Shown piece by piece: positions 3,112 through 16,981 of a stretch of DNA of 34,353 bases; the stretch's first letter is position 1, and every line of letters starts with the position of its first letter. The stretch is from an uncultured Calditrichaceae bacterium (GTDB lineage: Bacteria; Calditrichota; Calditrichia; Calditrichales; Calditrichaceae). The notes beneath the pieces were generated by a model, which saw nothing but the letters and a program-made list of their open reading frames with translations, was not told where the DNA came from and ran no database searches. Location of the stretch: positions 1 to 34,353 of the forward strand of contig CAZJNP010000001.1 in the NCBI GenBank assembly GCA_964547355.1. Reading direction: 5' to 3'. The translations under genes were made by a program, and so were the position numbers.

Positions 3112-3663
3112 CTAAATCCACTCTTCAAGGATTTCCTTGCGCGGGGAGGGAATTACGATTTTTTCCACCAGCAACCCTTTTTTCTCAATGATCGCCGCGC
3201 CGGCGTCCACCGCGGCTTGTACGGCGCCCACTTCTCCGGTGAGCGTAACGTAACCTTTGCCGCCGATGGCCATGGCCAGGTGCACGTTAATCAGCTTGAT
3301 TTCGGCCGCCTTCACGGCTGCGTCGGCCGCTTCGATGACCGAGGCTACGGAAAATCCTTCAATAATGCCCAGGGCTTCGATCTTCGGCATGCGCGCCACG
3401 CCGTTGATCGCCGGGAAGACTTCGGGATGAACGTTCGGAATCACAAAATGATCCACCACCGTATGAGCGCCCACGGCCACGCCGGTTTCGATACTGGCGT
3501 TCACCGCGTCCACATCGCCGCCAATAAGTACCATATATTTGCCCGGACAAATCGTCCGGTTGACCACGATCTGCACGTCCGCTCGCTTTAATACGGCGTC
3601 GGCAACTTCGTACCCTTTGGCAATACTCGATGTTTCCACAATACCAATGGCTGCGCCTTTCAT
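3112..3663 (-). CDS. pduT: BMC-T shell protein (tandem BMC domains), PduT-like with the conserved pore cysteine (…VNRTICPGKYMVLIGGD…)
   Basis: At 183 aa it contains two BMC (Pfam00936-like) domains. It is collinear with Citrobacter/Salmonella PduT, including the 'TICPGK' motif whose Cys ligates the [4Fe-4S] cluster in PduT. The RBS 'AGAGGATGA' lies upstream of the start. Confidence 0.85.
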   Translation of the reverse strand: MKGAAIGIVETSSIAKGYEVADAVLKRADVQIVVNRTICPGKYMVLIGGDVDAVNASIETGVAVGAHTVVDHFVIPNVHPEVFPAINGVARMPKIEALGIIEGFSVASVIEAADAAVKAAEIKLINVHLAMAIGGKGYVTLTGEVGAVQAAVDAGAAIIEKKGLLVEKIVIPSPRKEILEEWI

Positions 3664-3675
3664 TCGTTCATCCTC

Positions 3676-5016
3676 TTATTTGGAAATGATATGGATTCCT
3701 CTGGCTTCAATTTGCGTTACCTCTCCGCTGATGCTGGCATGCGCCGGCGCACCCAGCGCCTCTTCCGGTACGGCGCCCACTAATGCACCGGCTTCTACCC
3801 GCTGCCCCACCTGAACTACCGGACTGGCCGGTTGCCCGATATGGGAATCCAGCGGAATAATGACCTCGCCGGGATTCAGACCGGCCGGTATGAATTCAGC
3901 GTGGCGGTCGTAAGGTTTCAGGCCCAGGCGGCGGTAAACCGTATCGATCGGAATTTCCCGTCCCTTGCGCGCCGGATGCACGTCGCGAAACAGGACCTCC
4001 AGTTCTTCCGGCATGCGCGAAAGTCCCTTTTCCCGGAGCAGTTGTTTGGCGTCCACGCAGATATTTTTGGGGTCCAGCCCTTCCGGACAGGCAATCATGG
4101 TGCACACATTGCATTCGCAGCAGTATTCCGCCCACAGGCTGACCCGCTCTTTGGCTTCGCCGGTCATGAGCAGATTGCGCATCACCTTGTGTGGCTCGAT
4201 GGGATAGCCCAGGATATAGCGCGGACACATTTCCGTACACAACGAGCACTGGTCGCACTGGCCGTGCCCAATGCGCTGGTACGTTTCTTTGGGCGTGGTT
4301 TTTCGGCGCACCAGATAGTGGTCGGCCGGGAGCGCAATGAGTCCGCCCACATTTTTTGCCAGCGGCAGATTCAGATCGAATTCCACGCCGCCCATCATCA
4401 CGCCGCCGGTTAGAATGGCGGCCTGTTCCACCGTGAATCCGCCTGCCAATGCGATGCAATCCCCGAAAGTGGTTCCCACCGGCACTTTGGTGGTCAGGGC
4501 ATTTTTTACCGCGCCGGTAATGGTGACGTATTTTTCCAGCACCGGCCGCTGCTCGTCCACGGCGTGGGCAATATTGATGATGGTTTCCACGTTGTCCACC
4601 ACCGCCCCTACCTGTAAGGGGATGCCTCCGGGCGGAATGCGTCGGCCGGTGATCTCGTAAACCAGGATGTATTCGTCGCCGGCAGGATACACGTCTTCAT
4701 AAATGAGGAAATCGAATCCCAGCCGCTCCGCCTGCGGCTTAAGCACCTCCACAATATCCCGGTTTTTTTCTTTTAAGGCGATGGTAACCTTTGTTGCTCC
4801 GGTGAGCTCCTGCATGATGGTCAGACCGCGTAAAAAGGCTTCCGCTTCTTCAAGCATCACAGAACGGTCCTTGTACAGCAACGGCTCGCACTCGGCGCCG
4901 TTGGCGATCACGTGTTCCACCTGAGCGTCCAGCTTTTTGTAAGTGGGGAAACCGGCTCCTCCGGCTCCGATCACGCCGGCTTCTCTGATGCGGTGCAGTA
5001 TTTCCTGTTTATTCAT
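3676..5016 (-). CDS. pduS: PduS-like / RnfC-family Fe-S flavoprotein (NADH-binding, two 4Fe-4S motifs)
   Basis: The N-terminus 'MNKQEILHRIREAGVIGAGGAGFPT' matches the PduS/RnfC NADH-binding start. Two Cys clusters are present: 'CDQCSLCTEMCP' and 'CCECNVCTMIACP'. The track ORF starts at TTG 5022, but I prefer the ATG at 5016, which lies 2 nt after the EutJ stop. The gene ends 12 nt before the BMC-T start. Confidence 0.8.
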   Translation of the reverse strand: MNKQEILHRIREAGVIGAGGAGFPTYKKLDAQVEHVIANGAECEPLLYKDRSVMLEEAEAFLRGLTIMQELTGATKVTIALKEKNRDIVEVLKPQAERLGFDFLIYEDVYPAGDEYILVYEITGRRIPPGGIPLQVGAVVDNVETIINIAHAVDEQRPVLEKYVTITGAVKNALTTKVPVGTTFGDCIALAGGFTVEQAAILTGGVMMGGVEFDLNLPLAKNVGGLIALPADHYLVRRKTTPKETYQRIGHGQCDQCSLCTEMCPRYILGYPIEPHKVMRNLLMTGEAKERVSLWAEYCCECNVCTMIACPEGLDPKNICVDAKQLLREKGLSRMPEELEVLFRDVHPARKGREIPIDTVYRRLGLKPYDRHAEFIPAGLNPGEVIIPLDSHIGQPASPVVQVGQRVEAGALVGAVPEEALGAPAHASISGEVTQIEARGIHIISK

Positions 5017-5018
5017 AG

Positions 5019-5840
5019 TCAACTTTCCGAAAATCCGTAAGCCGCAATGGCCAGCGGCGTTAAGTATAACGGGTTCGAAGGCAGAATAATTTCGTACCCC
5101 GGTAATTCCTGTTCAAACACCCGGTCGATGCCGGGAAAACAAAAAGTCCCTCCGGAAAGATAAACAGAGTGCACGTTTTGTCCCTGCAGGTGCTGCCGGA
5201 TAATTTCCGCCATCTTCTGAAAAACCGGCATGACCACAGGGGCGAATTGTTCTGCCTGTGGGCTGCGTTTTAATTCTTCCGCTTCTTCGAGAGAAATTTT
5301 TTGATTTCCCGCCAAGGTCAGGCTCACGTGCCTGCCGCCGGTCGGTTCATCCGCCGAATAAATGATGTTGCCGTTTCTGCTGATTGCAATCCCGGTGGTA
5401 CCGCCGCCGATATCCACCACCGCCCCGTCGTCGATCTTTAACAAATGCACAACGCTGGACGGTTCGTCAATAATCGCTTTTATAGAAAGTCCGGCCGCCC
5501 GCAGGACATTCTGAACGATTTCCCGGTCCGTACCGGGCGGGTAAGAGGTCACTGCTTCTTCGATTTTAATATTGAATTTCTCTTCGGCCAGGGAAACCAG
5601 TTTTTTAACAATCTGAACCGCGCCCCAGTAATTGAGCACCACGCCATCCCGTACCACTTCGGCCCATTCCATAAACGCCGCAGCGGGTTCTCCACGTTCA
5701 TCCACCAGCAGAATCACCACATCGGCGGTGCCAAGGTCTATACCTACCTGCCAGCGCGCCGGCGCTTCCGTCGGGGAGACGTCGTTGACAATGGATGCAA
5801 TCTTTTGCAGCCGCCGGTTAATCGTTTGCAATGCATTCAT
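5019..5840 (-). CDS. eutJ: EutJ-like actin/Hsp70-fold ATPase (BMC-associated chaperone-like protein)
   Basis: It has the 'VGIDLGTADVVILLVDE' phosphate-1 motif and a 'DIGGGTTGIAI' motif typical of EutJ. I trimmed the track ORF (5019..5990) to the ATG at 5840 (MNALQTINRRL…). That start sits 8 nt downstream of the aldehyde dehydrogenase stop and has an AGGATGA RBS. The longer N-terminus in the track overlaps the aldehyde dehydrogenase gene. Confidence 0.8.
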   Translation of the reverse strand: MNALQTINRRLQKIASIVNDVSPTEAPARWQVGIDLGTADVVILLVDERGEPAAAFMEWAEVVRDGVVLNYWGAVQIVKKLVSLAEEKFNIKIEEAVTSYPPGTDREIVQNVLRAAGLSIKAIIDEPSSVVHLLKIDDGAVVDIGGGTTGIAISRNGNIIYSADEPTGGRHVSLTLAGNQKISLEEAEELKRSPQAEQFAPVVMPVFQKMAEIIRQHLQGQNVHSVYLSGGTFCFPGIDRVFEQELPGYEIILPSNPLYLTPLAIAAYGFSES

Positions 5841-5848
5841 CCTGAGCG

Positions 5849-7267
5849 TTAAACAATCCTGAAATGATCCACGATGACGCATCTGCGCAAGCGGACGAAA
5901 CTTTTGGCCGAAGTGACACCTTCGCCCGTGGGCGTGGTAATGGTCATGGAGGTCCAGCCCTCGCCGCCGAAGCCCAGTCCAGCCAGGCACGGACCGTTCT
6001 TGACAAAAATGCTGGTATTAATCTCGTTGGCCATGCGGTGCATATGATCGATGTTCCTTGAGTGCATGGCCGCGGAATGGTGTAGTCCGCGCTCCAGCTC
6101 GATGGCCGTGTCGATCGCGGCGTCGGCGTCGGGCATGCGAATCAACGGCACGACCGGCATCATCAGCTCAATGCGGGCAAAGGGGTGATTTTTATCTGTT
6201 TCCACGAACAACAGGCGCGTTTCCGGTGGCACATTTACCCCGATGGCAGCGGCCAATTTGGCGGCGTCCCTGCCGACCCATTTCCGGTTGATGACCGCAT
6301 CCGGTCCTGGATAGCCTTCCAGAATCACGCGAGCCAGCTCGTCGGCCTGAGCGGATGTTAATTCCACCGCTTTGTTTTTCTGCATCTCCTGCTTTAGCTG
6401 GTCTGCGATCTGATCGACGGCAATAATTTCTTTCTCGTCGGCGCACACGATGTTATTGTCGAAAGAGGCGCCCCAGACGATCGATTTGGCGGCTTTGGCG
6501 ATATCCGCGGTTTCGTCCACTACTACCGGAGGATTGCCGGCTCCGGCGGCCATCAGCCGTTTGTTGGTGTGTTTTCTGGCCGCCTCCACCACCGATTCTC
6601 CACCGGTAACCACCAGAAGATCGATACCCGGATATTTGAACAACTGTTGCGCGTTTTCTATGGAAGGTTCGGCCACGGTCGTTAAAAGATATTGGGGTCC
6701 GCCCACGGAAACGATGGCCTGATTGACCACTTCGATGGCGCGATGCGTGACTTTTTTTGCGGCCGGATGCGGCCCGAAGACCACGGCGTTGCCTGCCGCA
6801 ATCATGCTAATGGCGTTGTTGATGACCGTAGCCGCCGGATTGGTGGACGGCGTAATGGAAGCAATCACGCCCCAGGCCGCGTTCTCGATAATGGTTAACC
6901 CATGGTCGCCGGAGAGGGCGTCCGGTTTCAGATCTTCCAGTCCGGGTGTATGTTCGGCCTGAGAGATATTTTTTTGGATCTTGTCCTCCACGCGGCCCAT
7001 ACCGGTCTCCTGAACCGCCAGTTCCGCCAGTTCGCGGGCGTATTGAACCCCGGCCTGACGCATCGCCTGAATAATCTTTCCGCGAAATTCCAGATTGCGG
7101 ATTTTCTTCTGGGCTTCTTTAGCCACCTGCACCGCTTCGTCCAGCGTTTCGTAAACTCCGGCCGGGTACTTCTTTGCAGTCGAACGAACGGTGGTCGGTT
7201 GTGCCTGGTTCAGGCGGGCCATTACCGAATCGACGATTTGGGAAATCTCCCTGTCCGATAAAGCCAT
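5849..7267 (-). CDS. eutE: CoA-acylating aldehyde dehydrogenase (EutE/PduP-like) with an N-terminal amphipathic encapsulation peptide
   Basis: This is an aldehyde dehydrogenase superfamily fold with a catalytic Cys region ('…FDNNIVCADEKE…'). I chose the start at the ATG at 7267 (MALSDREISQIVDSVMARL…) because it has an AAGGAAA RBS. The track's upstream extension (MLHFIAAFF…) lacks one. The first ~18 residues form an amphipathic helix followed by a Pro/Thr-rich linker, as in PduP/EutE encapsulation peptides. Confidence 0.85.
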   Translation of the reverse strand: MALSDREISQIVDSVMARLNQAQPTTVRSTAKKYPAGVYETLDEAVQVAKEAQKKIRNLEFRGKIIQAMRQAGVQYARELAELAVQETGMGRVEDKIQKNISQAEHTPGLEDLKPDALSGDHGLTIIENAAWGVIASITPSTNPAATVINNAISMIAAGNAVVFGPHPAAKKVTHRAIEVVNQAIVSVGGPQYLLTTVAEPSIENAQQLFKYPGIDLLVVTGGESVVEAARKHTNKRLMAAGAGNPPVVVDETADIAKAAKSIVWGASFDNNIVCADEKEIIAVDQIADQLKQEMQKNKAVELTSAQADELARVILEGYPGPDAVINRKWVGRDAAKLAAAIGVNVPPETRLLFVETDKNHPFARIELMMPVVPLIRMPDADAAIDTAIELERGLHHSAAMHSRNIDHMHRMANEINTSIFVKNGPCLAGLGFGGEGWTSMTITTPTGEGVTSAKSFVRLRRCVIVDHFRIV

Positions 7268-7409: not shown

Positions 7410-7700
7410 CTATTCCAGCGTTCCTTTTAATTTAATCGGAAACACTTCTTCCAGATCGCCGTGCGGACGCGGGATCACGTGCACGGAAACCAGCTCGCCT
7501 ACCCGTTCGGCAGCCGCAGCACCGGCGTCGGTGGCCGCTTTACAGGCCGCCACATCGCCACGTACCAGCGCGGTGACGTATCCGCCGCCAATCTGTTCGT
7601 AAGCCACCAGTTTTACACGCGCGGCTTTGACCATGGCGTCCGCGGCTTCTATCAGGCCTACGAGGCCCTTGGTTTCGATCATTCCCAAAGCTTCCATCAT
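7410..7700 (-). CDS. BMC-H hexameric shell protein (PduA/EutM-like), copy 1
   Basis: The sequence '[29 protein letters not shown]…[19 protein letters not shown]' is the canonical BMC-H (Pfam00936) fold. A GAGGAG RBS precedes the ATGATG start. Confidence 0.9.
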
Positions 7701-7821: not shown

Positions 7822-8109
7822 CTATTCAATCTTTCCTTTTAATTTTATGGGAAACACGTCTTCCAGATCACCATGCGGACGCGGAATCACATGCACGGAC
7901 ACCAGCTCGCCGACCCGTTCGGCAGCCGCAGCGCCGGCGTCGGTTGCCGCTTTACAGGCAGCTACATCGCCGCGTACCAGCGCGGTGACGTATCCGCCGC
8001 CGATTTGTTCATAAGCCACCAGCTTTACTTTGGCCGCTTTGACCATGGCGTCCGCCGCTTCAATCAATCCTACCAGCCCCTTGGTTTCAATCATACCTAA
8101 TGCTTCCAT
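7822..8109 (-). CDS. BMC-H hexameric shell protein (PduA/EutM-like), copy 2
   Basis: It differs from copy 1 at about 4 of 95 aa. An AAAGGAG RBS precedes the start. Confidence 0.9.
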
Positions 8110-8198: not shown

Positions 8199-9212
8199 TT
8201 ACGAATGACTTAAATTTAACTGGTTCTTCTCTAATAAACAACAAGCAAGAATCGTTGTTTTAATAAAACTTTCCGCGCTGCCGGTGGCAGGCAGGCCGTG
8301 TACCGGTTTCCTGAAACCGGTGTAAAAGGGCCCGTAAAGATGCCATCCGGCCAAATCGCGTGCGATCTTATACCCGATGTTGGCCGCGTTCAGCGAGGGA
8401 AAAATGAGCACATTGGCTTGACCCTGCAATTTACTACCGGGCGCTTTTTTGGCGGCCACTTCCGGCACGATGGCCGCGTCGAACTGCAATTCTCCCTCAA
8501 TGGTCATGCCGGTTTTTTGCCCCTGCGCCTGTTGCACGGCTTTCGTTACCTGATCCACCAGCTCGTGCCGGGCGCTGCCCATGGTAGAAAACGAAAGCAA
8601 CGCCACCCGCGGCTCTTCTTCGGTCATTTGCGCGTAAGCCCGCCCCGTGTTCACCGCAATGGACGCCAATTGCTGCGCCGTTGGCCGGGGCAGCACGCAG
8701 CAATCCGCGAAAGCCAGCGCCCGTTGGTTGTCCGGGCTAACCAGTAGATAAAATCCTGATACCGTATTTTCGGCCTCATCCACACCCACCATCTGGAGAA
8801 CCGCTTGCAACGCATCTTTAATGGGCGATTGGTTTCCGGTCATCACAAGGTCGGCCAATCCCCTGGCCACAAAACCGCTGCCGTACCAGAGCGGGTCGTT
8901 TAGCAGTGATTCTGCCTGGTAACGGGTCAGCCCTTTGGCTTTACGGCGGTCAAAGAAAGCGCGTACCAAATGGTCAAATTCCGGATCGTGCCGGGGTTGA
9001 CGAATCTTGATCCCGGTCAGAGAAATGCGAAAACGTGCGGCGAAATCCCGGATGGCGGACTTGGCGCCAATCAAAATCGGGTCTGCCAGGTTTTCATCCT
9101 TCAGATAACGAACCGTTTGCAGTACGCGTTCGTCCAGAGCGTCGGTAAAAACAATGCGGCGCGGTCGTTTACGGCAGCCTTCACGGCACCGATTTATGAT
9201 CTTTTCAAACAT
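8199..9212 (-). CDS. eutD: Phosphate acetyltransferase, EutD/Pta-type
   Basis: It is strongly collinear with E. coli EutD. Our N-terminus MFEKIINRCRE…RRIVFTDALDERVL matches EutD MIIERCRE…ARVVFPDALDQRVL. 'GFADCCVLPRPTAQQLASIA…EEPRVALLSFSTMGSARH' matches EutD '[20 protein letters not shown]…EEPRVAMLSFSSNGSARH'. 'GELQFDAAIVPEVAAKKAP…ANVLIFPSLNAANIGYKIA' matches 'GELQFDAAFVPEVAAQKAP…ANVMVFPSLEAGNIGYKIA'. The 337 aa compares with 338 for EutD. Confidence 0.9.
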   Translation of the reverse strand: MFEKIINRCREGCRKRPRRIVFTDALDERVLQTVRYLKDENLADPILIGAKSAIRDFAARFRISLTGIKIRQPRHDPEFDHLVRAFFDRRKAKGLTRYQAESLLNDPLWYGSGFVARGLADLVMTGNQSPIKDALQAVLQMVGVDEAENTVSGFYLLVSPDNQRALAFADCCVLPRPTAQQLASIAVNTGRAYAQMTEEEPRVALLSFSTMGSARHELVDQVTKAVQQAQGQKTGMTIEGELQFDAAIVPEVAAKKAPGSKLQGQANVLIFPSLNAANIGYKIARDLAGWHLYGPFYTGFRKPVHGLPATGSAESFIKTTILACCLLEKNQLNLSHS

Positions 9213-9217: not shown

Positions 9218-9526
9218 TTACTTTTTGAATCTTTGCAGCACGTCGATGACCACTTCCCGGATCAGGTTCGGATCGCGCTGGTCGGCCGGCAAACGCTCCA
9301 CGACACGCTCAATCACCTGGCGCACAGTGGTTTCGTCGATATCGTTAAATTGAGCGTTTTGGGCCGCGTCCGGCTGTTTTTGCTCTTCCAGCAGCGCAAT
9401 CCCCAGGTCTTTGGCTAGTGAACGGGCTTCGGGCGTTACGATGTATTGGTTTTTAAACGCCTCGATTTCCTTAATGCCGTCTGTGTGCGCCTGCCGTACC
9501 ATGCGGGCGGTGATTAATTTCTTCAT
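9218..9526 (-). CDS. Small protein (102 aa) of unknown family with a basic N-terminus. It is translationally coupled downstream of ParA and is a candidate ParA partner or adaptor.
   Basis: Its ATG overlaps the ParA stop (ATGA), and its own stop lies 5 nt before the eutD start. The N-terminus 'MKKLITARMVRQ' is Lys/Arg-rich, and the protein is predicted helical. I did not recognise the family. Confidence 0.55.
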   Translation of the reverse strand: MKKLITARMVRQAHTDGIKEIEAFKNQYIVTPEARSLAKDLGIALLEEQKQPDAAQNAQFNDIDETTVRQVIERVVERLPADQRDPNLIREVVIDVLQRFKK

Positions 9527-10308: not shown

Positions 10309-10859
10309 TTCCGCCTCTTGGGTTTAATGGCGAAATAACGCTGCCGGATTTTTTCCACCGCACTGGCGTCCATGAGTTGTTTCAGGATCAAACGCAGCTG
10401 AGCCGCTTCCAGTTTAAAGCGGGCGGCCATTTCCTGAAGGGAGGCGCCCTGCGGCGATTGCTTTAAATGATCCAGAATGAGTTGGTCGGGAGGTTGAGAA
10501 GGGGACGCGGGCTTTTTGGCCCCTTTTCTTCGTTTGGACGCGGGTTTGGTGGCAGACGGTGCGGGCGGTTTGCGTTTGGGAGCGCCGATCCATTCTTCCA
10601 CCAGATGTTGCGTGTCGTCGAACGGATTGGCGATTACGTGAGCGGCCACCAGTTCACCGACGCGGTCGGCCGCCACGCTGCCGGCATTAACCGCGGCCTG
10701 ACAGGCACCCAGTTCGCCCCGAACCACAATCATTACCAGCGCGCCGCCCACCCGGCGCCATTTGATCAGTTCCACTTTGGCTGCTTTGACCATGGCATCG
10801 GCCGCTTCGATCGCTCCCACATAGCCGCGCGTTTCTATAAAACCGTAGGATAGCTTCAT
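10305..10859 (-). CDS. eutK: EutK-like shell protein: N-terminal BMC-H domain, a basic Pro/Lys/Ala/Ser-rich disordered linker, and a C-terminal helix-turn-helix (EutK_C-like) domain
   Basis: The BMC domain reads '[27 protein letters not shown]…VMIVVRGELGACQAAVNAG'. The linker reads 'APKRKPPAPSATKPASKRRKGAKKPASPSQPP'. The C-terminal ~60 aa (LILDHLKQSPQGASLQEMAARFKLEAAQLRLILKQLMDASAVEKI) looks like a winged-helix domain, as in the E. coli EutK C-terminal domain. The start is either M at 10877 or M at 10859. Confidence 0.75.
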   Translation of the reverse strand: MKLSYGFIETRGYVGAIEAADAMVKAAKVELIKWRRVGGALVMIVVRGELGACQAAVNAGSVAADRVGELVAAHVIANPFDDTQHLVEEWIGAPKRKPPAPSATKPASKRRKGAKKPASPSQPPDQLILDHLKQSPQGASLQEMAARFKLEAAQLRLILKQLMDASAVEKIRQRYFAIKPKRRK

Positions 10860-10953
10860 AATTAATAAATTAAACAAATAATCGCTTTACAAGCAAGCAA
10901 GAATCAAACTTGGGCCAAATAAATCTAAAGCTGCTCCCGTGCGGGAAACCCGG

Positions 10954-12555
10954 TTACGCCAAAATTGCCAGCAGTTTGCAAAAAACCATCATCATCAGCA
11001 TGGCAAAAGGATAAACGGAGGCATACAGCACCAGCGGCCTCTGGGAATCGGTCATGGCCGTTCCTGCGGCCAAGCCGGGAGTAGAGGTCATACCGCCACT
11101 GATCAAACCGAACAGGTCGAGTAAAGAGAGCTTGTATTTCCATCGCGCGTAATAAGTAACGGTAATCATCGGAAGCAGCGTAATTAGTGCGCCAAAGAGT
11201 ACAAGCGTCATACCTTGCCCGCGTAATATTTCCAGCACCTGCGAACCGGCCCGGATGCCCACCACGGCCAAAAAGAGCGTCAATCCGAATTCACGCATAA
11301 AAGTCACGATGGGCGCCGGCACAAACCATATCACCGGCCCTACTTTACCGCGGTTGCTCAGAAACAGCCCGGCCAGCAGCACACCGCCGGTGATGCCCAG
11401 GTTAAAAGAAATCACCTTCCCGATCGAAAAAGGAATCAATCCGGCTAAAATACCTAACAGGATCCCCAGGATAATGGAAAAAATATTGCCGTATTCCAGC
11501 TTTTTCATTTCGTCGCCGAATAATTTGCGGATTTCGTCCATGTGCGTTGCGTCTCCAGCCACCCGCACCCGGTCTCCCCAGCACAGGCGCTGATTGGGTT
11601 CGGCCGCGAATTCCACTCCGCCGCGCCGTATACGCGTGATATTGGCATTAAACAGGGCATGCAGATTGAGTTCGCCGATGGTTTTTCCGATAATTTGTTT
11701 ATTGGTGACCACAAACTTACGCGACTCAAAATATCGGCTTTCCGGCATTTTTGATTTGGACTCGCGCCCCAGAAAGGGAGTGGCTTTTTTAACCTTGGTC
11801 TCCTCACCTACAATTCGGACGATGTCATTCACATGCAGCACCGTGTCGGATTTGGGGATATGCAGTTCCCCGTTATGAATGACCCGGGAAATGATGATTC
11901 CGGTCACGCGGGTGAGGTCCAGCTCCTTTAACGTTTTGCCGTTCAGTTCTTCGTTGGTGATGCGCACCTGCTTGCTGATCACCGGTTCCCGGGCCGACTG
12001 TTCTTCCTGTTTGATGCGTTCTTCTTCGTTTTTGATGGACGTTTTAAACAGTGCCGGCATGAGCTTGACGAACAAGATGACGCCAATTACGCCAAAGGGG
12101 TATGCCACTCCGTAACCGGTGGAGGTAAGATGGGAACCGGTGGCCTCCTGAGCGGCCGCCAAACCGGGCGTGCTGGTCATGGCCCCGGCAAATAATCCGA
12201 TGGCTAAGGCCATATCCAGATGCCCAAAATAAGAGATCAGAAAGGTCAGCAGGGCGCCGCCGCCCAAAAGAAGAAAGACCAGCGTGTTCAGTTGCAACGA
12301 TTGGCTGCGCGACATATTGAAAATGGTAGGCCCGGCCTGAAGACCAATGGCGTAAATAAACAAGATGAGACCCATCATCTGAAAATCGTGATTGAGCGTA
12401 AACCCGTAATTGCCGAACAGCATGGCTACGAACAGGATGCCGGAAGATTCAAAAGAAAAGCCAAATATCTTAATCTGCCCGAAAATGAAACCCAGGGTAA
12501 TAATCAGAAACAATAAAATGATTTGGTGCTGCTGTAAATAAACGGATATTTCCAT
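10954..12555 (-). CDS. Membrane transport protein of the AAE (aspartate:alanine exchanger)/YidE-YbjL family with two central TrkA-C (RCK_C) domains
   Basis: The 533-aa protein has duplicated hydrophobic halves flanking two cytoplasmic ~70-aa repeats ('RVTGIIISRVIHNGELHIPKSDTVLHVNDIVRIVGE' and 'IIGKTIGELNLHALFNANITRIRRGGVEF…GDRVRVAGD'). This domain order is diagnostic of YidE/YbjL/AspT-type transporters. It is the first gene of the minus-strand operon. Confidence 0.7.
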   Translation of the reverse strand: MEISVYLQQHQIILLFLIITLGFIFGQIKIFGFSFESSGILFVAMLFGNYGFTLNHDFQMMGLILFIYAIGLQAGPTIFNMSRSQSLQLNTLVFLLLGGGALLTFLISYFGHLDMALAIGLFAGAMTSTPGLAAAQEATGSHLTSTGYGVAYPFGVIGVILFVKLMPALFKTSIKNEEERIKQEEQSAREPVISKQVRITNEELNGKTLKELDLTRVTGIIISRVIHNGELHIPKSDTVLHVNDIVRIVGEETKVKKATPFLGRESKSKMPESRYFESRKFVVTNKQIIGKTIGELNLHALFNANITRIRRGGVEFAAEPNQRLCWGDRVRVAGDATHMDEIRKLFGDEMKKLEYGNIFSIILGILLGILAGLIPFSIGKVISFNLGITGGVLLAGLFLSNRGKVGPVIWFVPAPIVTFMREFGLTLFLAVVGIRAGSQVLEILRGQGMTLVLFGALITLLPMITVTYYARWKYKLSLLDLFGLISGGMTSTPGLAAGTAMTDSQRPLVLYASVYPFAMLMMMVFCKLLAILA

Positions 12556-12784: not shown

Positions 12785-12882
12785 AAATATGGAGGTCTTT
12801 GCGTGATTTACCCAAATTCCCTTGTGTTTATCCGCCGGTCGGTTTAAATTGTTGTTTTATTGGGATCAGTATTTAAGGAGGA

Positions 12883-14238
12883 ATGGTGGCTGCGTTAATG
12901 GTATCTATATCGGGCATTCGGGGAGTGATCGGTGAGTCTCTGACGCCGGCTGTGGTGGACAAATACATTTCGGCCTTCGCCAAATATCTGAACGGCGGCA
13001 AAGTGGTGCTGGGCAGAGATTCCCGTGTTTCCGGGCCTTTTTTGTCCGATCTTGTGCGGGGTGTTCTGGTGGCTTCCGGTTGTCAGGTAATCGACATCGG
13101 AATTGTGCCCACGCCCACGGTTCAGTTAGAGGTGGAACATCATCAGGCGGCCGGTGGCATTGCCATTACGGCCAGCCATAACCCCATTCAGTGGAATGGT
13201 TTAAAATTTATGGGCAGCGACGGCCGCTTTTTGAGTCCCGCGGAAGCGGAAAAGGTGTTTGCCATGGCCGACTATGGCGAAACGGATTTCAAAGCCTGGG
13301 ATCGACTGGGTACGATCGCGCTGGATGACGGCGCCATTCGACGTCATATTGAGCGGGTTAAAAAAATCTCTTACATTGATGTGGAGGCGTTGCGTAAACG
13401 TCGCTTCAAGGTGGCGGTGGATACGGTGAACGGTGCCGGCGGTGTCATCATACCGCAACTACTGGAAGAGTTAGGCTGCGAAGTGATTACCCTGAATCAG
13501 GAACCGAACGGACGGTTTGCCCACACACCGGAACCTCTGCCGGAGAACCTGACCCAGCTGTGCGAGAAAGTAAAAGAAACCGGCGCCGACGTGGGATTTG
13601 CGGTGGATCCTGATGTGGATCGCTGCGCAATCGTGGATAACAATGGCCGGCCTATCGGCGAAGAGTACACGCTGGTGATCGCCACCAAACTGGTGTTCAG
13701 TAAAAAAATGGGACGCATGGTGGTTAACATGTCCACGTCGCGGGCGTCGGAAGATATAGTGAAATACTACAACGGCATGTTCATGCGCAGCAAGGTGGGC
13801 GAAATAAACGTAGCCGAAAAGATGAAGGAAATCGACGCCATCTTAGGCGGCGAGGGCAACGGAGGGGTCATCCTGCCGGAAGTACATCTGGGAAGGGACG
13901 CGCCGGTGGCTGTGGCGTTAACATTGCAGCAGTTGCTGGAATTCGGCGGAACCATGGCCGAACTGCACGCTTCTCTGCCGCAATATGTGATGATTAAGCA
14001 AAAAGTGAATATCGAGGGCATGGACCCGGATCGGGTGCTGCAAGTCATGGCCGAAAAATACAAAGACCGGCCGATCGATTTGCTGGACGGGGTGAAGATC
14101 GATTTTGAGAACAGCTGGGTGCACATGCGCAAGTCCAACACGGAACCGATTGTGCGCGTGATTAGCGAAGCGCCCACGGAGGAAGAAGCGCTGTCATTAG
14201 GTAAACGTTTTATGGACGAAATAAAGGCGTTAATGTAA
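12883..14238 (+). CDS. Phosphohexomutase-superfamily mutase (PGM/PMM/GlmM-like). From its neighbours it probably acts as a phosphopentomutase (deoxyribose-1-P to deoxyribose-5-P).
   Basis: It has the active-site 'TASHNP' phosphoserine motif and an N-terminal 'SISGIRGV' Mg/phosphate loop. The 451 aa fits GlmM and the archaeal-type PPM. AAGGAGG lies 6 nt upstream of the ATG. The function is assigned from context (the deoC and deoA neighbours), not from sequence. Confidence 0.75.
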   Translation: MVAALMVSISGIRGVIGESLTPAVVDKYISAFAKYLNGGKVVLGRDSRVSGPFLSDLVRGVLVASGCQVIDIGIVPTPTVQLEVEHHQAAGGIAITASHNPIQWNGLKFMGSDGRFLSPAEAEKVFAMADYGETDFKAWDRLGTIALDDGAIRRHIERVKKISYIDVEALRKRRFKVAVDTVNGAGGVIIPQLLEELGCEVITLNQEPNGRFAHTPEPLPENLTQLCEKVKETGADVGFAVDPDVDRCAIVDNNGRPIGEEYTLVIATKLVFSKKMGRMVVNMSTSRASEDIVKYYNGMFMRSKVGEINVAEKMKEIDAILGGEGNGGVILPEVHLGRDAPVAVALTLQQLLEFGGTMAELHASLPQYVMIKQKVNIEGMDPDRVLQVMAEKYKDRPIDLLDGVKIDFENSWVHMRKSNTEPIVRVISEAPTEEEALSLGKRFMDEIKALM

Positions 14239-14239
14239 C

Positions 14240-14524
14240 ATGCAGATTTGCCGGGTGATCGGGGATATTGTGTCCACGGTTAAAAACGAACATTTTAAGG
14301 GAAAGAAAATTCTGATTGTTCAGCCGCTGGACCTGGAGGATCAACCGCAGGGCAAAGCATTTTTAGCTTTGGATACGGTACAGGCCGGACCGGGCGACCG
14401 CGTTCTGGTGATGCGGGAAGGCGGTTCGGCGCGCATTATTTTTGAGGATAACGATATCCCGGTGCAGGCGGTCATTACCGCCGTGGTGGACGATATTCGC
14501 TTAGACGCGGACGCGCTTGATTAA
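14240..14524 (+). CDS. eutN: BMC-P pentameric vertex protein (EutN/PduN/CcmL family)
   Basis: The 94-aa protein matches the EutN pattern at 'ICRVIGDIVST' and 'QAGPGDRVLVMREGGSAR' (compare EutN 'GAGPGEWVLVSRGSAAR'). Its ATG begins 1 nt after the mutase stop. Confidence 0.85.
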   Translation: MQICRVIGDIVSTVKNEHFKGKKILIVQPLDLEDQPQGKAFLALDTVQAGPGDRVLVMREGGSARIIFEDNDIPVQAVITAVVDDIRLDADALD

Positions 14525-14607: not shown

Positions 14608-15432
14608 ATGTCTTCCATTACCAGCGATGTGATTGAACGGATTATTTCCCAGGTCATTTCCGAGAAACATATTGCACCGCGACCATTCACGTACGACGCG
14701 GCCAACGAATTGATTTCTTTCGGCGCCAATCGGGTCGGTGCTGTGGGTCCCACTTGTCCGCCCAAATACGAACTGGCACGCTGGATTGACCATACACTGC
14801 TCAAACCGGACGCTACACAAAAAGACGTGGAAAAAATCTGCTACGAAGCCCGTGATTACCATTTCGCTTCTGTGTGTATCAATCCTACCTGGGTGCCTTT
14901 GGCACATAAAATTTTACGCGGCAGCGAGTCCCGTGTGTGCACCGTGATCGGCTTTCCACTGGGCGCCACATTCCCGGAAGTCAAAGCCCGTGAAGCGCAA
15001 CTGGCCGTTGAAAACGGCGCTGACGAGCTGGATATGGTCATTAACATCGGTGCGCTCAAGTCCGGCGATTATGATCTGGTGGAACGGGATATTCGCGCGG
15101 TGGTACGCGCTGCGGGCCGGCGTATCGTTAAAGTGATTATTGAAACCTGTTTATTAACCGACGAAGAAAAAGTTAAAGCCTGCGCCATTGCCAAGCATGC
15201 CGGAGCCAATTTCGTCAAAACGTCCACCGGTTTCAGCAAGGGCGGTGCCACGGTGAAAGATGTGGCTTTGATGCGCAAGGTCGTAGGCGAATCCATGGGT
15301 GTAAAAGCCAGCGGCGGCGTACGCTCCTACGAGGAAGCCTGTAAAATGGTGGAAGCCGGTGCCACCCGCATTGGCGCCAGCGCCAGCGTGGCTATTGTGG
15401 GTAACGGGAACGGTAAGGACGCGGATTACTAA
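14608..15432 (+). CDS. deoC: Deoxyribose-phosphate aldolase (DERA/DeoC) with a ~50-aa N-terminal extension carrying a putative encapsulation peptide
   Basis: The core is class I aldolase TIM: '…[18 protein letters not shown]…' and '[21 protein letters not shown]…VKASGGVRS', including the Schiff-base Lys in 'FVKTSTGF'. The extension '[20 protein letters not shown]' is an amphipathic helix that is absent from free DeoC (E. coli DeoC starts near the equivalent of 'LKPDAT'). Confidence 0.9.
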
Positions 15433-15664
15433 AGCAGCGATTGTCGTGATTCGGTGTTCGTTAATGGGCATTATGATTTGATTAATAGCCCTTGACCAAT
15501 GTCCAAAGGCCAATGGTTAATTACACACAGATAGCAGTTAAATGAACGATGAATTATGACCACCGAATGAAGAATTGCGATTTCGAGGTCAATCTTCTTC
15601 TTTTGTATTCGGATGGGAAAAAATATAAAGAAAAAAAATAAATCTAAACCAGAGAAGGAATGGT

Positions 15665-16981
15665 ATGACCCCTTACGAGATAATCAGTAAAAAACGCGAT
15701 GGCTTTGAATTAAGCGATGAAGAAATTGAATTCATGGTTCTGGGTTTTGCCCGCGGCGAAATTCCGGATTATCAAATGTCGGCTTTGCTGATGGCTGTTT
15801 TTTTGCGGGGCATGAGTCAGCATGAAACCATGGCCTTAACCAAAACCATGCTTAATTCCGGGCGGGTGGTGGACCTGAGCCATATTCCGGGCGTAAAGGT
15901 GGATAAGCACAGCACCGGCGGTGTGGGAGACAAAGTGTCCATTATTTTAGCGCCCATTGTCGTTGCGGCCGGCGTTCTGGTGCCCATGATTTCCGGACGC
16001 GGTCTGGGGCATACCGGCGGTACGCTGGATAAGCTGGAAAGCATTCCCGGCTTTCGGGTCAATTATTCTATCCAGGAATATGCCGAAAAAATCGCAAAAA
16101 TCGGCACCTGCCTGATCGGGCAAACGCCGGATATTGTGCCGGCCGACAAAAAAATGTATGCCCTGCGGGACGTCACCGCCACCATTCAATCCATTCCGCT
16201 GATTACTGGCAGCATAATGAGCAAGAAACTGGCTGAAGGGATCGACGCCCTGGTGCTGGATGTGAAGACCGGGAAAGGCGCTTTTATGCAAAAGTATGAG
16301 GATTCCGTGGCTCTTGCCAAACAGTTGATCGCCACGGGCGAGCGGTTCGGCAAGCCCACGGTGGCTTACATCACGGACATGAACGAACCGCTAGGCAGGG
16401 CCGTGGGCAACTGGAATGAGATCGAAGAATGCATTTACGCATTGCAGGGAGACGGCCCTGAAGATTTAATGGAAGTAACGCACACGTTGTGCGGTGCCAT
16501 GATTTATCTCGGCAAAAAGGCGGGTTCTATCGATGAGGGCAAGGAAATCTCCAGAGAGATGATCCGTTCCGGAAAAGCATGGGACAAATTCCTGGAGATT
16601 GTGTCCGAACAGGAAGGCGATGTTGAAATGGTGAAGAATCCGCAAAAATATCCCAAATCAAAATTCAGCGTTCAGGTTACGGCGGAACAGGACGGCTATA
16701 TTGCCGGGATCGACGCCCTGGAGGTGGGGCTGACCGCGGTTATTTTGGGAGCGGGCCGCACGAAGTCGGATGACGAAATCGATCCCAAGGCCGGCATCAT
16801 GGTGCACAAAAAAGGCGGGGATCGAGTAGCAAAAGGCGAAACGCTTATGACCGTTTACACGGACAAGGAAAATGTTCTGACGGAAGCGCAAAAACGGTTG
16901 GGCCAGGCGGTTACTTATGCCAAACAATCAGTAGCACCGCGGCAGTTGATTTATGAGTACCTGGATAAGAACAGCTTGTAA
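15665..16981 (+). CDS. deoA: Thymidine / pyrimidine-nucleoside phosphorylase
   Basis: The 438-aa protein carries 'KHSTGGVGDKVSIILAPIVAAAGV' and 'SGRGLGHTGGTLDKLESIPGF', hallmarks of thymidine phosphorylase family 3. GAGAAGGAATGG provides the RBS. Confidence 0.9.
   Translation: MTPYEIISKKRDGFELSDEEIEFMVLGFARGEIPDYQMSALLMAVFLRGMSQHETMALTKTMLNSGRVVDLSHIPGVKVDKHSTGGVGDKVSIILAPIVVAAGVLVPMISGRGLGHTGGTLDKLESIPGFRVNYSIQEYAEKIAKIGTCLIGQTPDIVPADKKMYALRDVTATIQSIPLITGSIMSKKLAEGIDALVLDVKTGKGAFMQKYEDSVALAKQLIATGERFGKPTVAYITDMNEPLGRAVGNWNEIEECIYALQGDGPEDLMEVTHTLCGAMIYLGKKAGSIDEGKEISREMIRSGKAWDKFLEIVSEQEGDVEMVKNPQKYPKSKFSVQVTAEQDGYIAGIDALEVGLTAVILGAGRTKSDDEIDPKAGIMVHKKGGDRVAKGETLMTVYTDKENVLTEAQKRLGQAVTYAKQSVAPRQLIYEYLDKNSL

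What the first reader, a model, noticed from the sequence alone, without database searches (positions are those of the whole stretch)
3112..16981. Complete DERA-centred (SPU-class) metabolosome locus predicted to catabolise (deoxy)nucleosides inside a BMC
All three shell types are present: BMC-H (two copies plus the EutK-like protein), BMC-T (PduT-like) and BMC-P. They sit with deoxyribose-phosphate aldolase, an acylating aldehyde dehydrogenase, a phosphotransacetylase, EutJ and PduS. The plus operon additionally links thymidine phosphorylase and a PGM-family mutase directly to BMC-P and deoC. That implies the following flux: nucleoside + Pi to deoxyribose-1-P, then deoxyribose-5-P, then acetaldehyde + G3P, with acetaldehyde going to acetyl-CoA and acetyl-P inside the shell. 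SPU-type loci are known only from comparative genomics, where DERA is the signature enzyme, and no SPU BMC has been characterised. Explicit co-operonic nucleoside phosphorylase and mutase make the substrate assignment unusually concrete. The locus also mixes EUT-type parts (EutD-type Pta, EutJ, EutK-like, EutN-like) with PDU-type parts (PduS, PduT).
Basis: partly seen in the sequence, partly recalled or inferred. Interest (0 to 1): 0.8.

Follow-up and report, generated by a model that had tools for sequence, protein, structure and literature searches.

The report
Deoxyribose-phosphate microcompartment on an ethanolamine-type chassis
A Calditrichota bacterium places a nucleoside-to-deoxyribose-phosphate gene cassette next to genes for a protein-shelled organelle, which gives a likely job to an organelle previously catalogued as fragmented and of unknown function; it is a variant of a known kind, not a new one.

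Summary

- a ParA-type ATPase
- a 102-aa protein equal to the N-terminal shell-cargo linker domain of EutQ
- an AspT/YidE-family transporter

The contig is from Calditrichota (DERA, the deoxyribose-phosphate aldolase, is 80% identical to that of Caldithrix abyssi).

The best reading is a metabolosome (catabolic microcompartment) with DERA as signature enzyme. DERA and the aldehyde dehydrogenase both carry N-terminal amphipathic encapsulation helices. The pyrimidine-nucleoside phosphorylase and the PGM-family mutase carry none and probably act in the cytosol.

It is not a canonical SPU1-7 locus. It has one BMC-P, no RPI and a Pta-type rather than a PduL-type phosphotransacylase. Its shell/core operon is much closer to true ethanolamine (EUT) loci than to SPU loci (aldehyde dehydrogenase 70% against 33-50% identity).

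The kind was already catalogued: as "MIC" in C. abyssi (2014) and as "FRAG3" (2021), where DeoC next to BMC-P was noted. SPU DERA was assayed in 2024.

What is new here:
- the two modules sit side by side
- phosphorylase and mutase are co-operonic with DERA
- a stand-alone EutQ-N linker
- a conserved EutK-like/ParA gene pair

The mutase's pentose specificity is inferred, not shown.

The parts
3112..3663 (-). BMC-T shell protein, PduT-like, with pore cysteine Cys39 (motif TICPGK)
   Evidence: Two BMC domains, 5e-46. Best NCBIfam match is eut_PduT, though at 139.5 bits it is below that model's 250.3-bit cut-off. Sequence. It is 73% identical to the PduT of EUT locus L157 and 85-92% to Calditrichota orthologues.
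3676..5022 (-). PduS-like flavin/Fe-S oxidoreductase, the likely electron outlet for NADH made inside the shell
   Evidence: Complex1_51K, SLBB, Fer4_17 and RnfC_N domains. Always adjacent to PduT in relatives.
5019..5870 (-). EutJ (actin/Hsp70-fold protein); role unknown
   Evidence: NF011660 EutJ, 2e-101.
5849..7267 (-). CoA-acylating aldehyde dehydrogenase (EutE type) with an N-terminal encapsulation peptide, MALSDREISQIVDSVMARL
   Evidence: PRK15398, 683 bits. Hydrophobic moment 0.74 at residues 6-16. Identity is 70% to the EUT-locus enzyme L157 and 33-50% to SPU-locus enzymes.
7410..7700 (-). BMC-H (EutM-like) hexamer, copy 1
   Evidence: BMC domain 1e-29. EutM equivalog, 177 bits, above the cut-off.
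7822..8109 (-). BMC-H (EutM-like) hexamer, copy 2; 95% identical to copy 1
8199..9212 (-). Phosphotransacetylase of the Pta/EutD type (PF01515), not the PduL type
   Evidence: PF01515, 1e-91. No terminal extension.
9218..9526 (-). Stand-alone homologue of the EutQ N-terminal domain (shell-cargo linker) with no cupin domain
   Evidence: Matches positions 1-99 of 233 of the EutQ model NF012001, 6e-14. AF2 model: a folded alpha/beta unit at residues 1-46 (pLDDT about 90), a disordered stretch at 50-62, and helices at 65-78 and 86-101. Conserved after ParA in L083, L155, L156, L159 and L161. In a profile search, 20 of the 23 best cluster representatives are 97-113 aa.
9523..10308 (-). ParA/MinD-family ATPase (deviant Walker A, KGGIGKT), a candidate organelle-positioning ATPase
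   Evidence: AAA_31, 1.6e-41. Follows the EutK-like gene in 8 of 8 BMC loci examined; the start/stop overlap (0-4 nt) was read for the window, L156, L157, L159, L160 and L161. Relatives at 42% identity or less have no BMC genes nearby.
10305..10859 (-). BMC-H fused to a K/R/P-rich linker and a EutK_C-like winged-helix domain (EutK-like)
   Evidence: BMC domain 3e-25. EutK_C 5e-6, at 26.8 bits just under the 27.5 cut-off. The EutK equivalog aligns end to end. The ATG at 10859 matches homologues.
10860..10898 (-). Conserved 39-nt element directly upstream of the EutK-like start codon; a probable promoter or operator of the shell operon
   Evidence: Near-identical in L156 and L161 and recognisable in L155 and L083, although the encoded proteins are only 45-57% identical.
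10954..12555 (-). AspT/YidE/YbjL-family transporter with two TrkA_C domains, lying between the two modules; membership doubtful
   Evidence: Asp-Al_Ex, 1e-69. Not present upstream of the shell operon in L155, L159 or L161.
12821..12855 (+). Promoter-like motif CTTGTGTTT...TAAATTG upstream of the mutase gene
   Evidence: Recurs upstream of the mutase in L001, L003, L005, L029 and L162.
12883..14238 (+). PGM/PMM-superfamily (COG1109) phosphosugar mutase, inferred to convert deoxyribose-1-P to deoxyribose-5-P; no encapsulation peptide
   Evidence: Four PGM_PMM domains. TIGR03990, 528 bits. Nearest PDB entries 1wqa and 9du5; 9ix8 (phosphopentomutase) scores 163 bits. Adjacent to BMC-type DERA in 6 of 7 evaluable Calditrichota loci.
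14240..14524 (+). BMC-P pentamer (vertex protein), the only one on the contig
   Evidence: EutN_CcmL, 7.5e-27. Found next to DERA also in L003, L006 and L162.
14608..15432 (+). Deoxyribose-phosphate aldolase (signature enzyme) with a 54-residue N-terminal extension that includes an encapsulation helix at residues 6-19
   Evidence: TIGR00126, 1e-90, matching from residue 55. Solved DERAs align only from residue 44-60, the best from 55. The extension is conserved in 22 homologues. AF2 helix at 6-19. Hydrophobic moment 0.74.
15665..16981 (+). Pyrimidine-nucleoside / thymidine phosphorylase; no extension, presumed cytosolic
   Evidence: TIGR02644, 567 bits; PRK05820, 545 bits. Downstream of DERA in L003, L004, L158 and L162.
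16991..17788 (+). RsgA GTPase, syntenic with the cassette; probably a housekeeping passenger
   Evidence: TIGR00157, 5e-68. Follows the phosphorylase in L003, L004, L158 and L162.

Best explanation
The locus encodes a catabolic microcompartment (metabolosome) of a Calditrichota bacterium whose signature enzyme is deoxyribose-phosphate aldolase (DERA).

**Proposed pathway**
1. In the cytosol, the pyrimidine-nucleoside phosphorylase splits thymidine or deoxyuridine with phosphate to give deoxyribose-1-P.
2. The PGM-family mutase shifts the phosphate to give deoxyribose-5-P. This step is inferred.
3. Deoxyribose-5-P enters the shell, where DERA cleaves it to glyceraldehyde-3-P and acetaldehyde.
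4. The EutE-type dehydrogenase traps the acetaldehyde as acetyl-CoA and makes NADH.
5. The Pta recycles CoA and yields acetyl-P.
6. With no alcohol dehydrogenase present, NAD+ is regenerated by passing electrons out through PduS and the Fe-S pore of PduT.

**Assembly**
- DERA and the dehydrogenase are recruited by their N-terminal amphipathic helices.
- The 102-aa stand-alone EutQ-N protein bridges these helices to the shell, as EutQ(1-99) does in Salmonella.
- The EutK-like shell protein together with the ParA ATPase probably spaces the organelles along the nucleoid.

**Origin**
The shell/core operon descends from a true ethanolamine (EUT) locus. That ancestor lost the lyase, EutL, EutS, EutP, EutT and the EutQ cupin domain, and was re-tooled with an SPU-like DERA.

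**Shown versus inferred**
- Shown: gene content, extensions, synteny and identity relationships.
- Inferred: encapsulation, mutase specificity, electron export and positioning.
For: - Gene families score far above their thresholds.
- The DERA extension is conserved in 22 homologues and absent from free DERAs, which align only from about residue 55.
- AF2 models a helix at DERA residues 6-19.
- Amphipathicity is 0.74 for both encapsulation peptides, against 0.48-0.60 for the phosphorylase and mutase N-termini.
- All SPU DERAs carry such an extension (PMC11585597).
- BMC-P lies 1 nt after the mutase gene and 83 nt before DERA.
- The mutase is adjacent to DERA in 6 of 7 evaluable Calditrichota loci. 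The phosphorylase follows DERA in 5 of 9.
- The ten-gene shell operon keeps the same order in L155, L156 and L159, and in the partial loci L083 and L161.
- The shell operon and a BMC-type DERA appear to lie on one 697,855-bp contig but apart (matching contig lengths). This suggests one genome uses both modules.
- Identity to the EUT locus L157 against SPU-like loci:

| Protein | EUT locus L157 | SPU-like loci |
|---|---|---|
| Aldehyde dehydrogenase | 70% | 33-50% |
| PduS | 60% | 41% |
| BMC-T | 73% | 49-54% |

- L157 and L160 are true EUT loci (EutA/B/C/L present) with the same back half.
- EutQ(1-99) is an experimentally shown shell-cargo linker (PMC12487888). The 102-aa protein matches it in sequence and predicted architecture.
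- PduS as an alternative route for NAD+ recycling is proposed in PMC11585597.
Against: - There are no expression, imaging or biochemical data for any Calditrichota BMC.
- The mutase's best curated family is archaeal-type GlmM. Its nearest solved relatives are PGM/PMM (320 and 311 bits), against 163 bits for the PGM-family phosphopentomutase.
- Only one BMC-P lies on the contig, whereas FRAG3 and SPU shells have three.
- Pta shows no recognisable encapsulation peptide.
- The phosphorylase is missing from the cassette in C. abyssi and three other loci.
- The rest of the genome is unseen. An ethanolamine lyase or another aldehyde-forming enzyme with an encapsulation peptide could exist elsewhere and share the shell.
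Confidence: 0.7

Rival explanations
1. It is an ordinary member of the SPU class (SPU1-7), and works exactly like those loci.
For: DERA has an N-terminal extension and there is an aldehyde dehydrogenase with an encapsulation peptide, which are the two common denominators of SPU. DERA is 59-67% identical to DERAs in SPU-like loci L014, L017 and L039. A PduS/PduT pair is present, as in most SPU types.
Against: There is one BMC-P instead of the obligatory triplet, no RPI, and a PF01515 Pta instead of the PF06130 PTAC. The dehydrogenase, PduS and BMC-T are far closer to EUT loci than to SPU loci. EutJ, a EutK-like protein and EutQ-N are present. The 2021 catalogue placed Calditrichaeota DeoC/BMC-P loci in FRAG3, not in SPU.
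Confidence: 0.1
2. The BMC part is right, but the substrate-supply chain is not. The PGM-family gene is a hexose or glucosamine phosphate mutase (housekeeping or glycogen-related), and deoxyribose-5-P reaches the BMC by another route, such as a DeoB-type mutase or deoxyribokinase encoded elsewhere.
For: TIGR03990 (archaeal-type GlmM) scores 528 bits, above its 439-bit cut-off. The nearest solved structures are PGM/PMM from Pyrococcus and Thermococcus. The same contig carries glucan phosphorylase and debranching enzyme genes.
Against: The mutase is tightly adjacent to BMC-type DERA in six Calditrichota genomes, with a conserved promoter-like motif in front of it. BMC-P is inserted between the two genes with a 1-nt gap. 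COG1109 enzymes include a bona fide phosphopentomutase (TK1777, PDB 9ix8), and PGMTk was assayed on deoxyribose-1-P (PMC11641776, PMC11940775).
Confidence: 0.25
3. The shell operon is still an ethanolamine (or other acetaldehyde-source) microcompartment, and the neighbouring DERA cassette is a cytosolic deo operon that lies next to it here by chance.
For: The C. abyssi genome paper annotated its genes as an 'ethanolamine utilization cluster' (PMC5317091). The two modules are separate in all other Calditrichota loci examined. The core enzymes are EUT-like.
Against: No EutBC is present in the window or within 10 kb of five relatives' shell operons. Axen 2014 found no signature enzyme at this locus in C. 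abyssi. DERA carries a BMC-specific extension and a BMC-P gene is embedded in its cassette. The operon itself lacks any BMC-P, so it needs the one in the DERA cassette.
Confidence: 0.07
4. It is a decaying, non-functional remnant of a EUT locus.
For: Many EUT genes have been lost, EutQ is truncated, and only one BMC-P is present.
Against: All ORFs are intact. The operon order and the EutQ-N length are conserved across Calditrichota genomes in which ParA is only 60-84% identical to the window's. Upstream elements are conserved. Catalytic motifs of DERA, the mutase and ParA are intact.
Confidence: 0.03

Closest known systems
SPU (sugar-phosphate-utilising) BMCs, subtypes SPU1-7 (Axen 2014; Sutter 2021; Dwyer, Sutter & Kerfeld 2024)
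   Same: DERA with an N-terminal extension is the aldehyde-generating signature enzyme. An acylating aldehyde dehydrogenase carries an encapsulation peptide. A PduS/PduT pair is present. The predicted substrate is deoxyribose-5-P from DNA breakdown.
   Different: One BMC-P rather than a triplet; no RPI; no TPI or class II aldolase. The phosphotransacylase is Pta/EutD-type rather than PduL-type. EutJ, a EutK-like protein, EutQ-N and ParA are present. The core enzymes are only 33-50% identical to SPU enzymes, against 70% to EUT enzymes. A co-operonic nucleoside phosphorylase and PGM-family mutase are not mentioned in the 2024 SPU paper, where a text search for phosphorylase, mutase and nucleoside gave no hits.
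FRAG3 loci (Sutter 2021, Supplementary Data 2) and the C. abyssi 'MIC' locus (Axen 2014)
   Same: Same phylum. DeoC lies next to BMC-P. There is a standard BMC-H plus a BMC-H with a C-terminal extension. [quoted passage not shown] The C. abyssi ParA (UniRef H1XR88) is in the same 90% cluster as the GD2 ParA of L155, which is 60% identical to the window's ParA.
   Different: Those loci are scattered and were left without an assigned function or signature enzyme. Here the shell/core operon and the DERA cassette are juxtaposed and divergent. FRAG3 is described with a BMC-P triplet, but only one BMC-P is seen on this contig.
Ethanolamine-utilisation (EUT) BMCs: Salmonella Eut, and the ParA-containing EUT loci of Ignavibacteria-like genomes (L157, L160)
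   Same: The gene order EutK-like, ParA, ..., EutD, EutM, EutM, ..., EutE, EutJ, PduS, PduT is the same. Identity to L157 is 50-85% for ParA, the BMC-H pair, aldehyde dehydrogenase, EutJ, PduS and BMC-T, and 29-42% for the EutK-like protein, EutQ-N and Pta. The EutQ N-domain is the linker and EutK is the partitioning factor (PMC12487888).
   Different: No EutABC lyase or reactivase, no EutL, EutS, EutP, EutT or EutH, and no EutQ cupin/acetate-kinase domain. DERA replaces the lyase as the acetaldehyde source.
McdAB / ParA-type carboxysome positioning systems (MacCready et al.)
   Same: A ParA-family ATPase is encoded inside a BMC operon. Candidate adaptors sit on the cargo. EutQ-N homologues end with an aromatic residue 3-6 positions from the C-terminus in 5 of 6 sequences.
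   Different: No McdB homologue was identified. The gene partner is a shell protein with a DNA-binding-type tail (EutK-like). No experiments exist for any metabolosome ParA.
Classical deo operon (deoC-deoA-deoB-deoD; pdp-deoC in Firmicutes)
   Same: A nucleoside phosphorylase, a mutase and DERA are encoded together. Streptococcus loci in the scan have pdp next to deoC.
   Different: The mutase belongs to the PGM/PMM superfamily, not the DeoB alkaline-phosphatase superfamily. DERA carries an encapsulation extension. A shell vertex gene is embedded in the cassette.

Membership tests
SPU BMC (SPU1-7) | pfam01791 DERA with an N-terminal, BMC-specific extension | tested here: met
   a 54-residue extension with a helix at 6-19, conserved in homologues and absent from free DERAs.
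SPU BMC (SPU1-7) | Acylating aldehyde dehydrogenase with an encapsulation peptide | tested here: met
SPU BMC (SPU1-7) | At least a triplet of BMC-P genes (grey and orange clades plus one other) | tested here: not met
   One BMC-P on the 34-kb contig. The rest of the genome is unseen. The requirement is stated.
SPU BMC (SPU1-7) | RpiB-type isomerase (pfam02502) with an encapsulation peptide (all types in 2021; absent only in SPU5 and part of SPU4) | tested here: not met
   No RPI among the window's ORFs.
SPU BMC (SPU1-7) | When a PTAC is present it is PduL type (pfam06130) | tested here: not met
   PF01515 Pta instead.
SPU BMC (SPU1-7) | Core and shell proteins cluster with SPU clades (Sutter HMM set / LoClass) | tested here: inconclusive
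   The classifier is not available. By identity, the dehydrogenase, PduS and BMC-T are closer to EUT loci (60-73%) than to SPU-like loci (33-54%).
FRAG3 (Sutter 2021) | Calditrichaeota-centred; pfam01791 aldolase next to a BMC-P | tested here: met
   description.
FRAG3 (Sutter 2021) | Two kinds of BMC-H, one with a C-terminal extension | tested here: met
   The extension here is about 100 aa with a EutK_C-like domain, longer than the roughly 50 aa quoted.
FRAG3 (Sutter 2021) | [quoted passage not shown] | not testable with these tools
   Only one contig of the genome is available and there is no colour-clade HMM set.
FRAG3 (Sutter 2021) | Components dispersed over several genomic sites | tested here: not met
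   The shell/core operon and the DERA cassette are adjacent here. They are dispersed in the relatives.
EUT BMC | Ethanolamine ammonia-lyase EutBC as signature enzyme | tested here: not met
   Absent from the window. Present in L157 and L160.
EUT BMC | EutE-type dehydrogenase, EutD-type Pta, EutM/EutK shell proteins, EutJ, EutQ N-domain | tested here: met
ParA-type (McdAB-like) organelle positioning system | ParA/MinD ATPase with a deviant Walker A motif, encoded in the BMC operon | tested here: met
   KGGIGKT motif. Conserved position after the EutK-like gene in 8 of 8 loci.
ParA-type (McdAB-like) organelle positioning system | A cargo-bound adaptor that stimulates the ATPase; nucleoid binding by ParA-ATP | not testable with these tools
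   The candidates (the EutK-like tail and EutQ-N) rest on gene adjacency and on the ParB-like suggestion for EutK in PMC12487888.

The most novel reading that the evidence does not exclude
The conserved gene pair (EutK-like shell protein followed by ParA) is a nucleoid-based positioning system for metabolosomes. The pair's start and stop codons overlap in the loci where this was read. It occurs both in this DERA organelle and in true EUT loci.

In this reading the EutK-type hexamer is the shell-resident, ParB/McdB-like adaptor, acting through its basic linker and winged-helix tail. ParA is the ATPase that distributes the organelles. That would supply the missing partner for the EutK-dependent partitioning seen in Salmonella in 2025, whose mechanism is unknown. 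It would be the first ParA system assigned to a catabolic BMC.
Probability: 0.35. Interest if true: 0.75.

Novelty: new variant of a known kind. Interest (0 to 1): 0.5.

Why it matters
- **It assigns a function.** The locus ties a signature enzyme and a concrete substrate route (pyrimidine deoxynucleoside to deoxyribose-P to acetaldehyde plus glyceraldehyde-3-P) to a BMC type that catalogues left as "incomplete core" (2014) or "fragmented, function unknown" (2021). The C. abyssi genome paper read the same genes as an ethanolamine cluster.
- **It is testable in culture.** The cultured type strain C. abyssi DSM 13497 has the mutase-DERA pair. Cluster membership and UniProt accession spacing suggest it also has the same shell operon.
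- **It shows natural module swapping.** An EUT chassis has been re-tooled with an SPU-type aldolase, which is relevant to BMC engineering.
- **It offers a minimal linker.** The 102-aa protein is a natural, minimal EutQ-N linker.
- **It gives a handle on positioning.** The recurrent EutK-like/ParA pair is a lead on how metabolosomes are placed in the cell.

Tried and rejected
- **Rfam scan of the whole window:** no riboswitch or other RNA family.
- **Sigma-70 promoter and terminator scan:** counts equal to shuffled sequence, so uninformative. The repeat search in the divergent intergenic region found only weak A/T-rich matches.
- **Foldseek of the EutQ-N model against PDB:** nothing significant, best E 0.2. 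The afdb50 library was unavailable.
- **Metagenome scan with ParA:** 71 of 72 loci were generic ParA/Soj at 42% identity or less, with no BMC genes. Only L083 was informative.
- **Transporter (10954-12555) as the substrate importer:** rejected as a conserved part, because it is absent upstream of the shell operon in L155, L159 and L161, and a conserved promoter-like element lies between it and the EutK-like gene.
- **Secreted SNase-domain protein (18322-19431) as a DNA-scavenging partner:** syntenic only in the closest relative L158 and absent from L003 and L162.
- **BMC-P ancestry (SPU against EUT):** identities of 36-51% do not decide it.
- **Word-based homologue search for EutQ-N:** only 6 hits. 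The full profile search was needed.

Full report
**1. Observation**

On the minus strand, in transcription order:

| Gene | Coordinates |
|---|---|
| AspT/YidE-family transporter | 12555-10954 |
| BMC-H with EutK_C-like tail | 10859-10305 |
| ParA-family ATPase | 10308-9523 |
| 102-aa protein | 9526-9218 |
| Pta (PF01515) | 9212-8199 |
| BMC-H, two copies, 95% identical | 8109-7822 and 7700-7410 |
| Acylating aldehyde dehydrogenase | 7267-5849 |
| EutJ | 5870-5019 |
| PduS-like | 5022-3676 |
| PduT-like BMC-T | 3663-3112 |

On the plus strand:

| Gene | Coordinates |
|---|---|
| PGM-family mutase | 12883-14238 |
| BMC-P | 14240-14524 |
| DERA | 14608-15432 |
| Pyrimidine-nucleoside/thymidine phosphorylase | 15665-16981 |
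| RsgA | 16991-17788 |

A tblastn of all locus proteins against the window finds no second BMC-P.

**2. Source and prior knowledge**

DERA's closest relatives are from Calditrichota: 80% identity to Caldithrix abyssi DSM 13497 and 84-91% to uncultured relatives. The window is the whole contig.

Four papers bear on the finding.
- Axen 2014 described the C. abyssi locus (aldehyde dehydrogenase, pta-type PTAC, PduS) as a metabolosome with incomplete core, because no signature enzyme was nearby.
- Sutter 2021 (Supplementary Data 2) defined FRAG3: 8 loci, mostly Calditrichaeota. [quoted passage not shown]
- Dwyer, Sutter and Kerfeld 2024 curated 206 SPU loci. They showed that all SPU DERAs have an N-terminal extension, and they purified and assayed SPU6 DERA and RPI.
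- The C. abyssi genome paper read part of the operon as an "ethanolamine utilization cluster".

The statement that no SPU component has been characterised is therefore dated, and the DeoC/BMC-P link in this phylum is not new.

**3. The DERA cassette**

Solved DERAs and DERAs of Bacillota and Streptococcus align to the window protein only from about residue 55. BMC-associated homologues align from residue 1-35.

In 22 homologues the N-terminus reads MSxITxxxIExIISQVIxE, followed by a variable linker and a conserved RPFSYDAANxLISFGA segment. AlphaFold2 models helices at 6-19 and 29-37 before the TIM barrel. The hydrophobic moment of residues 7-17 is 0.74, equal to that of the dehydrogenase N-terminus (REISQIVDSVM). 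The corresponding values are 0.48 for the phosphorylase and 0.60 for the mutase. Neither the phosphorylase nor the mutase has any terminal extension relative to its family model.

Synteny across Calditrichota loci:

| Arrangement | Loci |
|---|---|
| mutase, BMC-P, DERA, phosphorylase, RsgA | window, L003, L162 |
| mutase, DERA | C. abyssi, L005, L029 |
| BMC-P, DERA | L006 |
| DERA, phosphorylase, RsgA | L004, L158 (contig ends upstream) |

A promoter-like motif (CTTGTGTTT, then about 19 nt, then TAAATTG) precedes the mutase gene in six loci.

The mutase's specificity is not settled by sequence. Its best curated match is archaeal-type GlmM (528 bits, above the cut-off). Its nearest structures are the Pyrococcus and Thermococcus PGM/PMM enzymes (320 and 311 bits). 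The Thermococcus PGM-family phosphopentomutase scores 163 bits. The pentose role is an inference from conserved context.

**4. The shell/core operon**

The order EutK-like, ParA, about-100-aa protein, Pta, BMC-H, BMC-H, aldehyde dehydrogenase, EutJ, PduS, BMC-T is kept in Calditrichota GD2 (L155), L156 and L159. It is also kept, as far as the contigs reach, in L161 and L083. C. abyssi's ParA is in the same 90% cluster as GD2's. Its UniProt accession lies eight entries before that of its PduT, which is consistent with, but does not prove, the same operon.

In none of these relatives is the DERA cassette within 7-10 kb. The 697,855-bp contig that carries L159 appears also to carry a BMC-type DERA elsewhere, judged by matching contig lengths. 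The window is therefore the only one of nine or more Calditrichota loci examined in which the two modules are adjacent.

A 39-nt element directly upstream of the EutK-like start codon is nearly identical in L156 and L161 and recognisable in L155 and L083. The transporter upstream of it is not conserved in relatives. I therefore do not count the transporter as part of the system.

**5. Ancestry**

ParA relatives at 50-51% identity sit in true EUT loci (L157, L160). These carry EutA, B, C and L; then EutK-like, ParA, EutS, EutP, full-length EutQ, EutT, EutD, EutM, EutM, EutN, EutE, EutJ, PduS and PduT.

Identity of window proteins to L157 and to SPU-like loci L039, L014 and L017:

| Protein | EUT locus L157 | SPU-like loci |
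|---|---|---|
| Aldehyde dehydrogenase | 70% | 31-50% |
| PduS | 60% | 41% |
| BMC-T | 73% | 49-54% |
| EutJ | 54% | 35% (L017 only) |
| BMC-H | 84-85% | 70-77% |

DERA is 59-67% identical to the SPU-locus DERAs. BMC-P is undecided at 36-51%. The simplest reading is an EUT-derived chassis that lost the lyase and its accessories and now works with an SPU-like aldolase. The PduS/PduT "PDU parts" were already part of that EUT lineage.

**6. The 102-aa protein**

It matches positions 1-99 of the EutQ equivalog model (6e-14) and aligns along its whole length with the N-terminus of the full-length EutQ proteins of L157 and L160.

The AF2 model has three parts:
- a compact alpha/beta unit at residues 1-46 (pLDDT about 90)
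- a disordered stretch at 50-62
- two helices at 65-78 and 86-101

In Salmonella, EutQ(1-99) is necessary and sufficient for targeting. [quoted passage not shown] A stand-alone linker that couples the EP-bearing DERA and dehydrogenase to the shell is therefore the best assignment.

A profile search of 1.84 billion cluster representatives found 147 hits. Among the 23 best, 20 are 97-113 aa, and the longer hits match at their N-terminus.

**7. ParA and EutK**

The ATPase has the classical deviant Walker A motif. Its gene follows the EutK-like gene in all eight BMC loci examined. Where the coordinates were read (the window, L156, L157, L159, L160 and L161), the start and stop codons overlap by 0-4 nt.

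The EutK-like protein consists of a BMC domain, a K/R/P- or K/G-rich linker, and a winged-helix tail. The 2025 Salmonella study found that EutK is required for subcellular partitioning of Eut BMCs. It speculated on a ParB-like role, with the mechanism unknown. McdAB-like genes near PDU and GRM loci have been noted bioinformatically but not tested. Axen 2014 listed ParA among ancillary Pfams.

The specific EutK-ParA coupling is, as far as my searches show, undescribed. No paper in the library holds McdA, McdB and EutK together. A term search of the catalogue's stored supplementary text found no description of ParA in these loci, and its trees label the Ignavibacteria loci as unassigned. This is the most novel lead, but it is inference only.

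**8. Mechanism and verdict**

- The phosphorylase and the mutase act outside the shell.
- NAD+ is probably regenerated through PduS/PduT, because no alcohol dehydrogenase is present (idea from PMC11585597).
- Cargo loading uses a EutQ-N linker.

The locus works like an SPU BMC but fails several SPU membership features. It is best filed as a consolidated FRAG3-type, EUT-derived DERA metabolosome, which makes it a new variant of a known kind. Interest is moderate: the core idea is published, but the locus assigns a function to an unassigned BMC type present in a cultured organism, and it exposes two useful parts, the minimal linker and the EutK-ParA pair.

Noticed in passing
window 9523-10859 (-); also L155, L156, L157, L159, L160, L161, L083: A ParA ATPase gene always follows the EutK-like shell gene, both in DERA-type loci and in true EUT loci. 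Their start and stop codons overlap by 0-4 nt where the coordinates were read. This may be the missing partner for EutK-dependent BMC partitioning.
   Followed up: partly
window 9218-9526 (-): A stand-alone EutQ N-terminal linker domain without the cupin/acetate-kinase part. Homologues end in an aromatic residue (F or Y) 3-6 positions from the C-terminus in 5 of 6 sequences, which recalls McdB-like proteins.
   Followed up: partly
window 10860-10898 (-): A 39-nt element (GCTTGCTTGTAAAGCGATTATTTGTTTAATTTATTAATT) directly before the EutK-like ATG. It is almost invariant in L156 and L161 although the proteins have diverged, so it is a likely promoter or operator.
   Followed up: partly
window 12821-12855 (+): The motif CTTGTGTTT...TAAATTG upstream of the mutase gene is shared by five other Calditrichota cassettes. 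It resembles the -33/-7 promoter type of Bacteroidota (the resemblance is from memory, not tested).
   Followed up: partly
window 18322-19431 (-): A 369-aa protein with what reads as a signal-peptide-like N-terminus, a staphylococcal-nuclease domain, and a long C-terminal region with no family match. It is syntenic only in the closest relative (L158). It could be an extracellular DNase that feeds the pathway.
   Followed up: partly
window 10954-12555 (-): An AspT/YidE/YbjL-family transporter with two TrkA_C domains is wedged between the two modules. It is not conserved in relatives and its substrate is unknown.
   Followed up: partly
window 7410-8109 (-): Two tandem BMC-H genes are 95% identical at the protein level, separated by 121 nt. 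All relatives also keep two copies, which suggests dosage or concerted evolution.
   Followed up: no
window 25657-31163: An alpha-glucan phosphorylase (Thermococcales-type maltodextrin phosphorylase model) and an archaeal-type glycogen-debranching enzyme with a glucodextranase-like C-terminal module lie on the same contig as the archaeal-type PGM-family mutase.
   Followed up: no
window 1151-2169 (+): Adjacent CYTH-domain and TerB-domain genes lie upstream of the locus. No link to the BMC was seen.
   Followed up: no
L157 and L160 (Ignavibacteria-like and unclassified genomes): These are complete EUT loci with ParA and a PduS/PduT pair. The 2021 catalogue trees label the corresponding Ignavibacteriae loci 'UA (omitted)', so this EUT variant appears to be unclassified.
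   Followed up: partly
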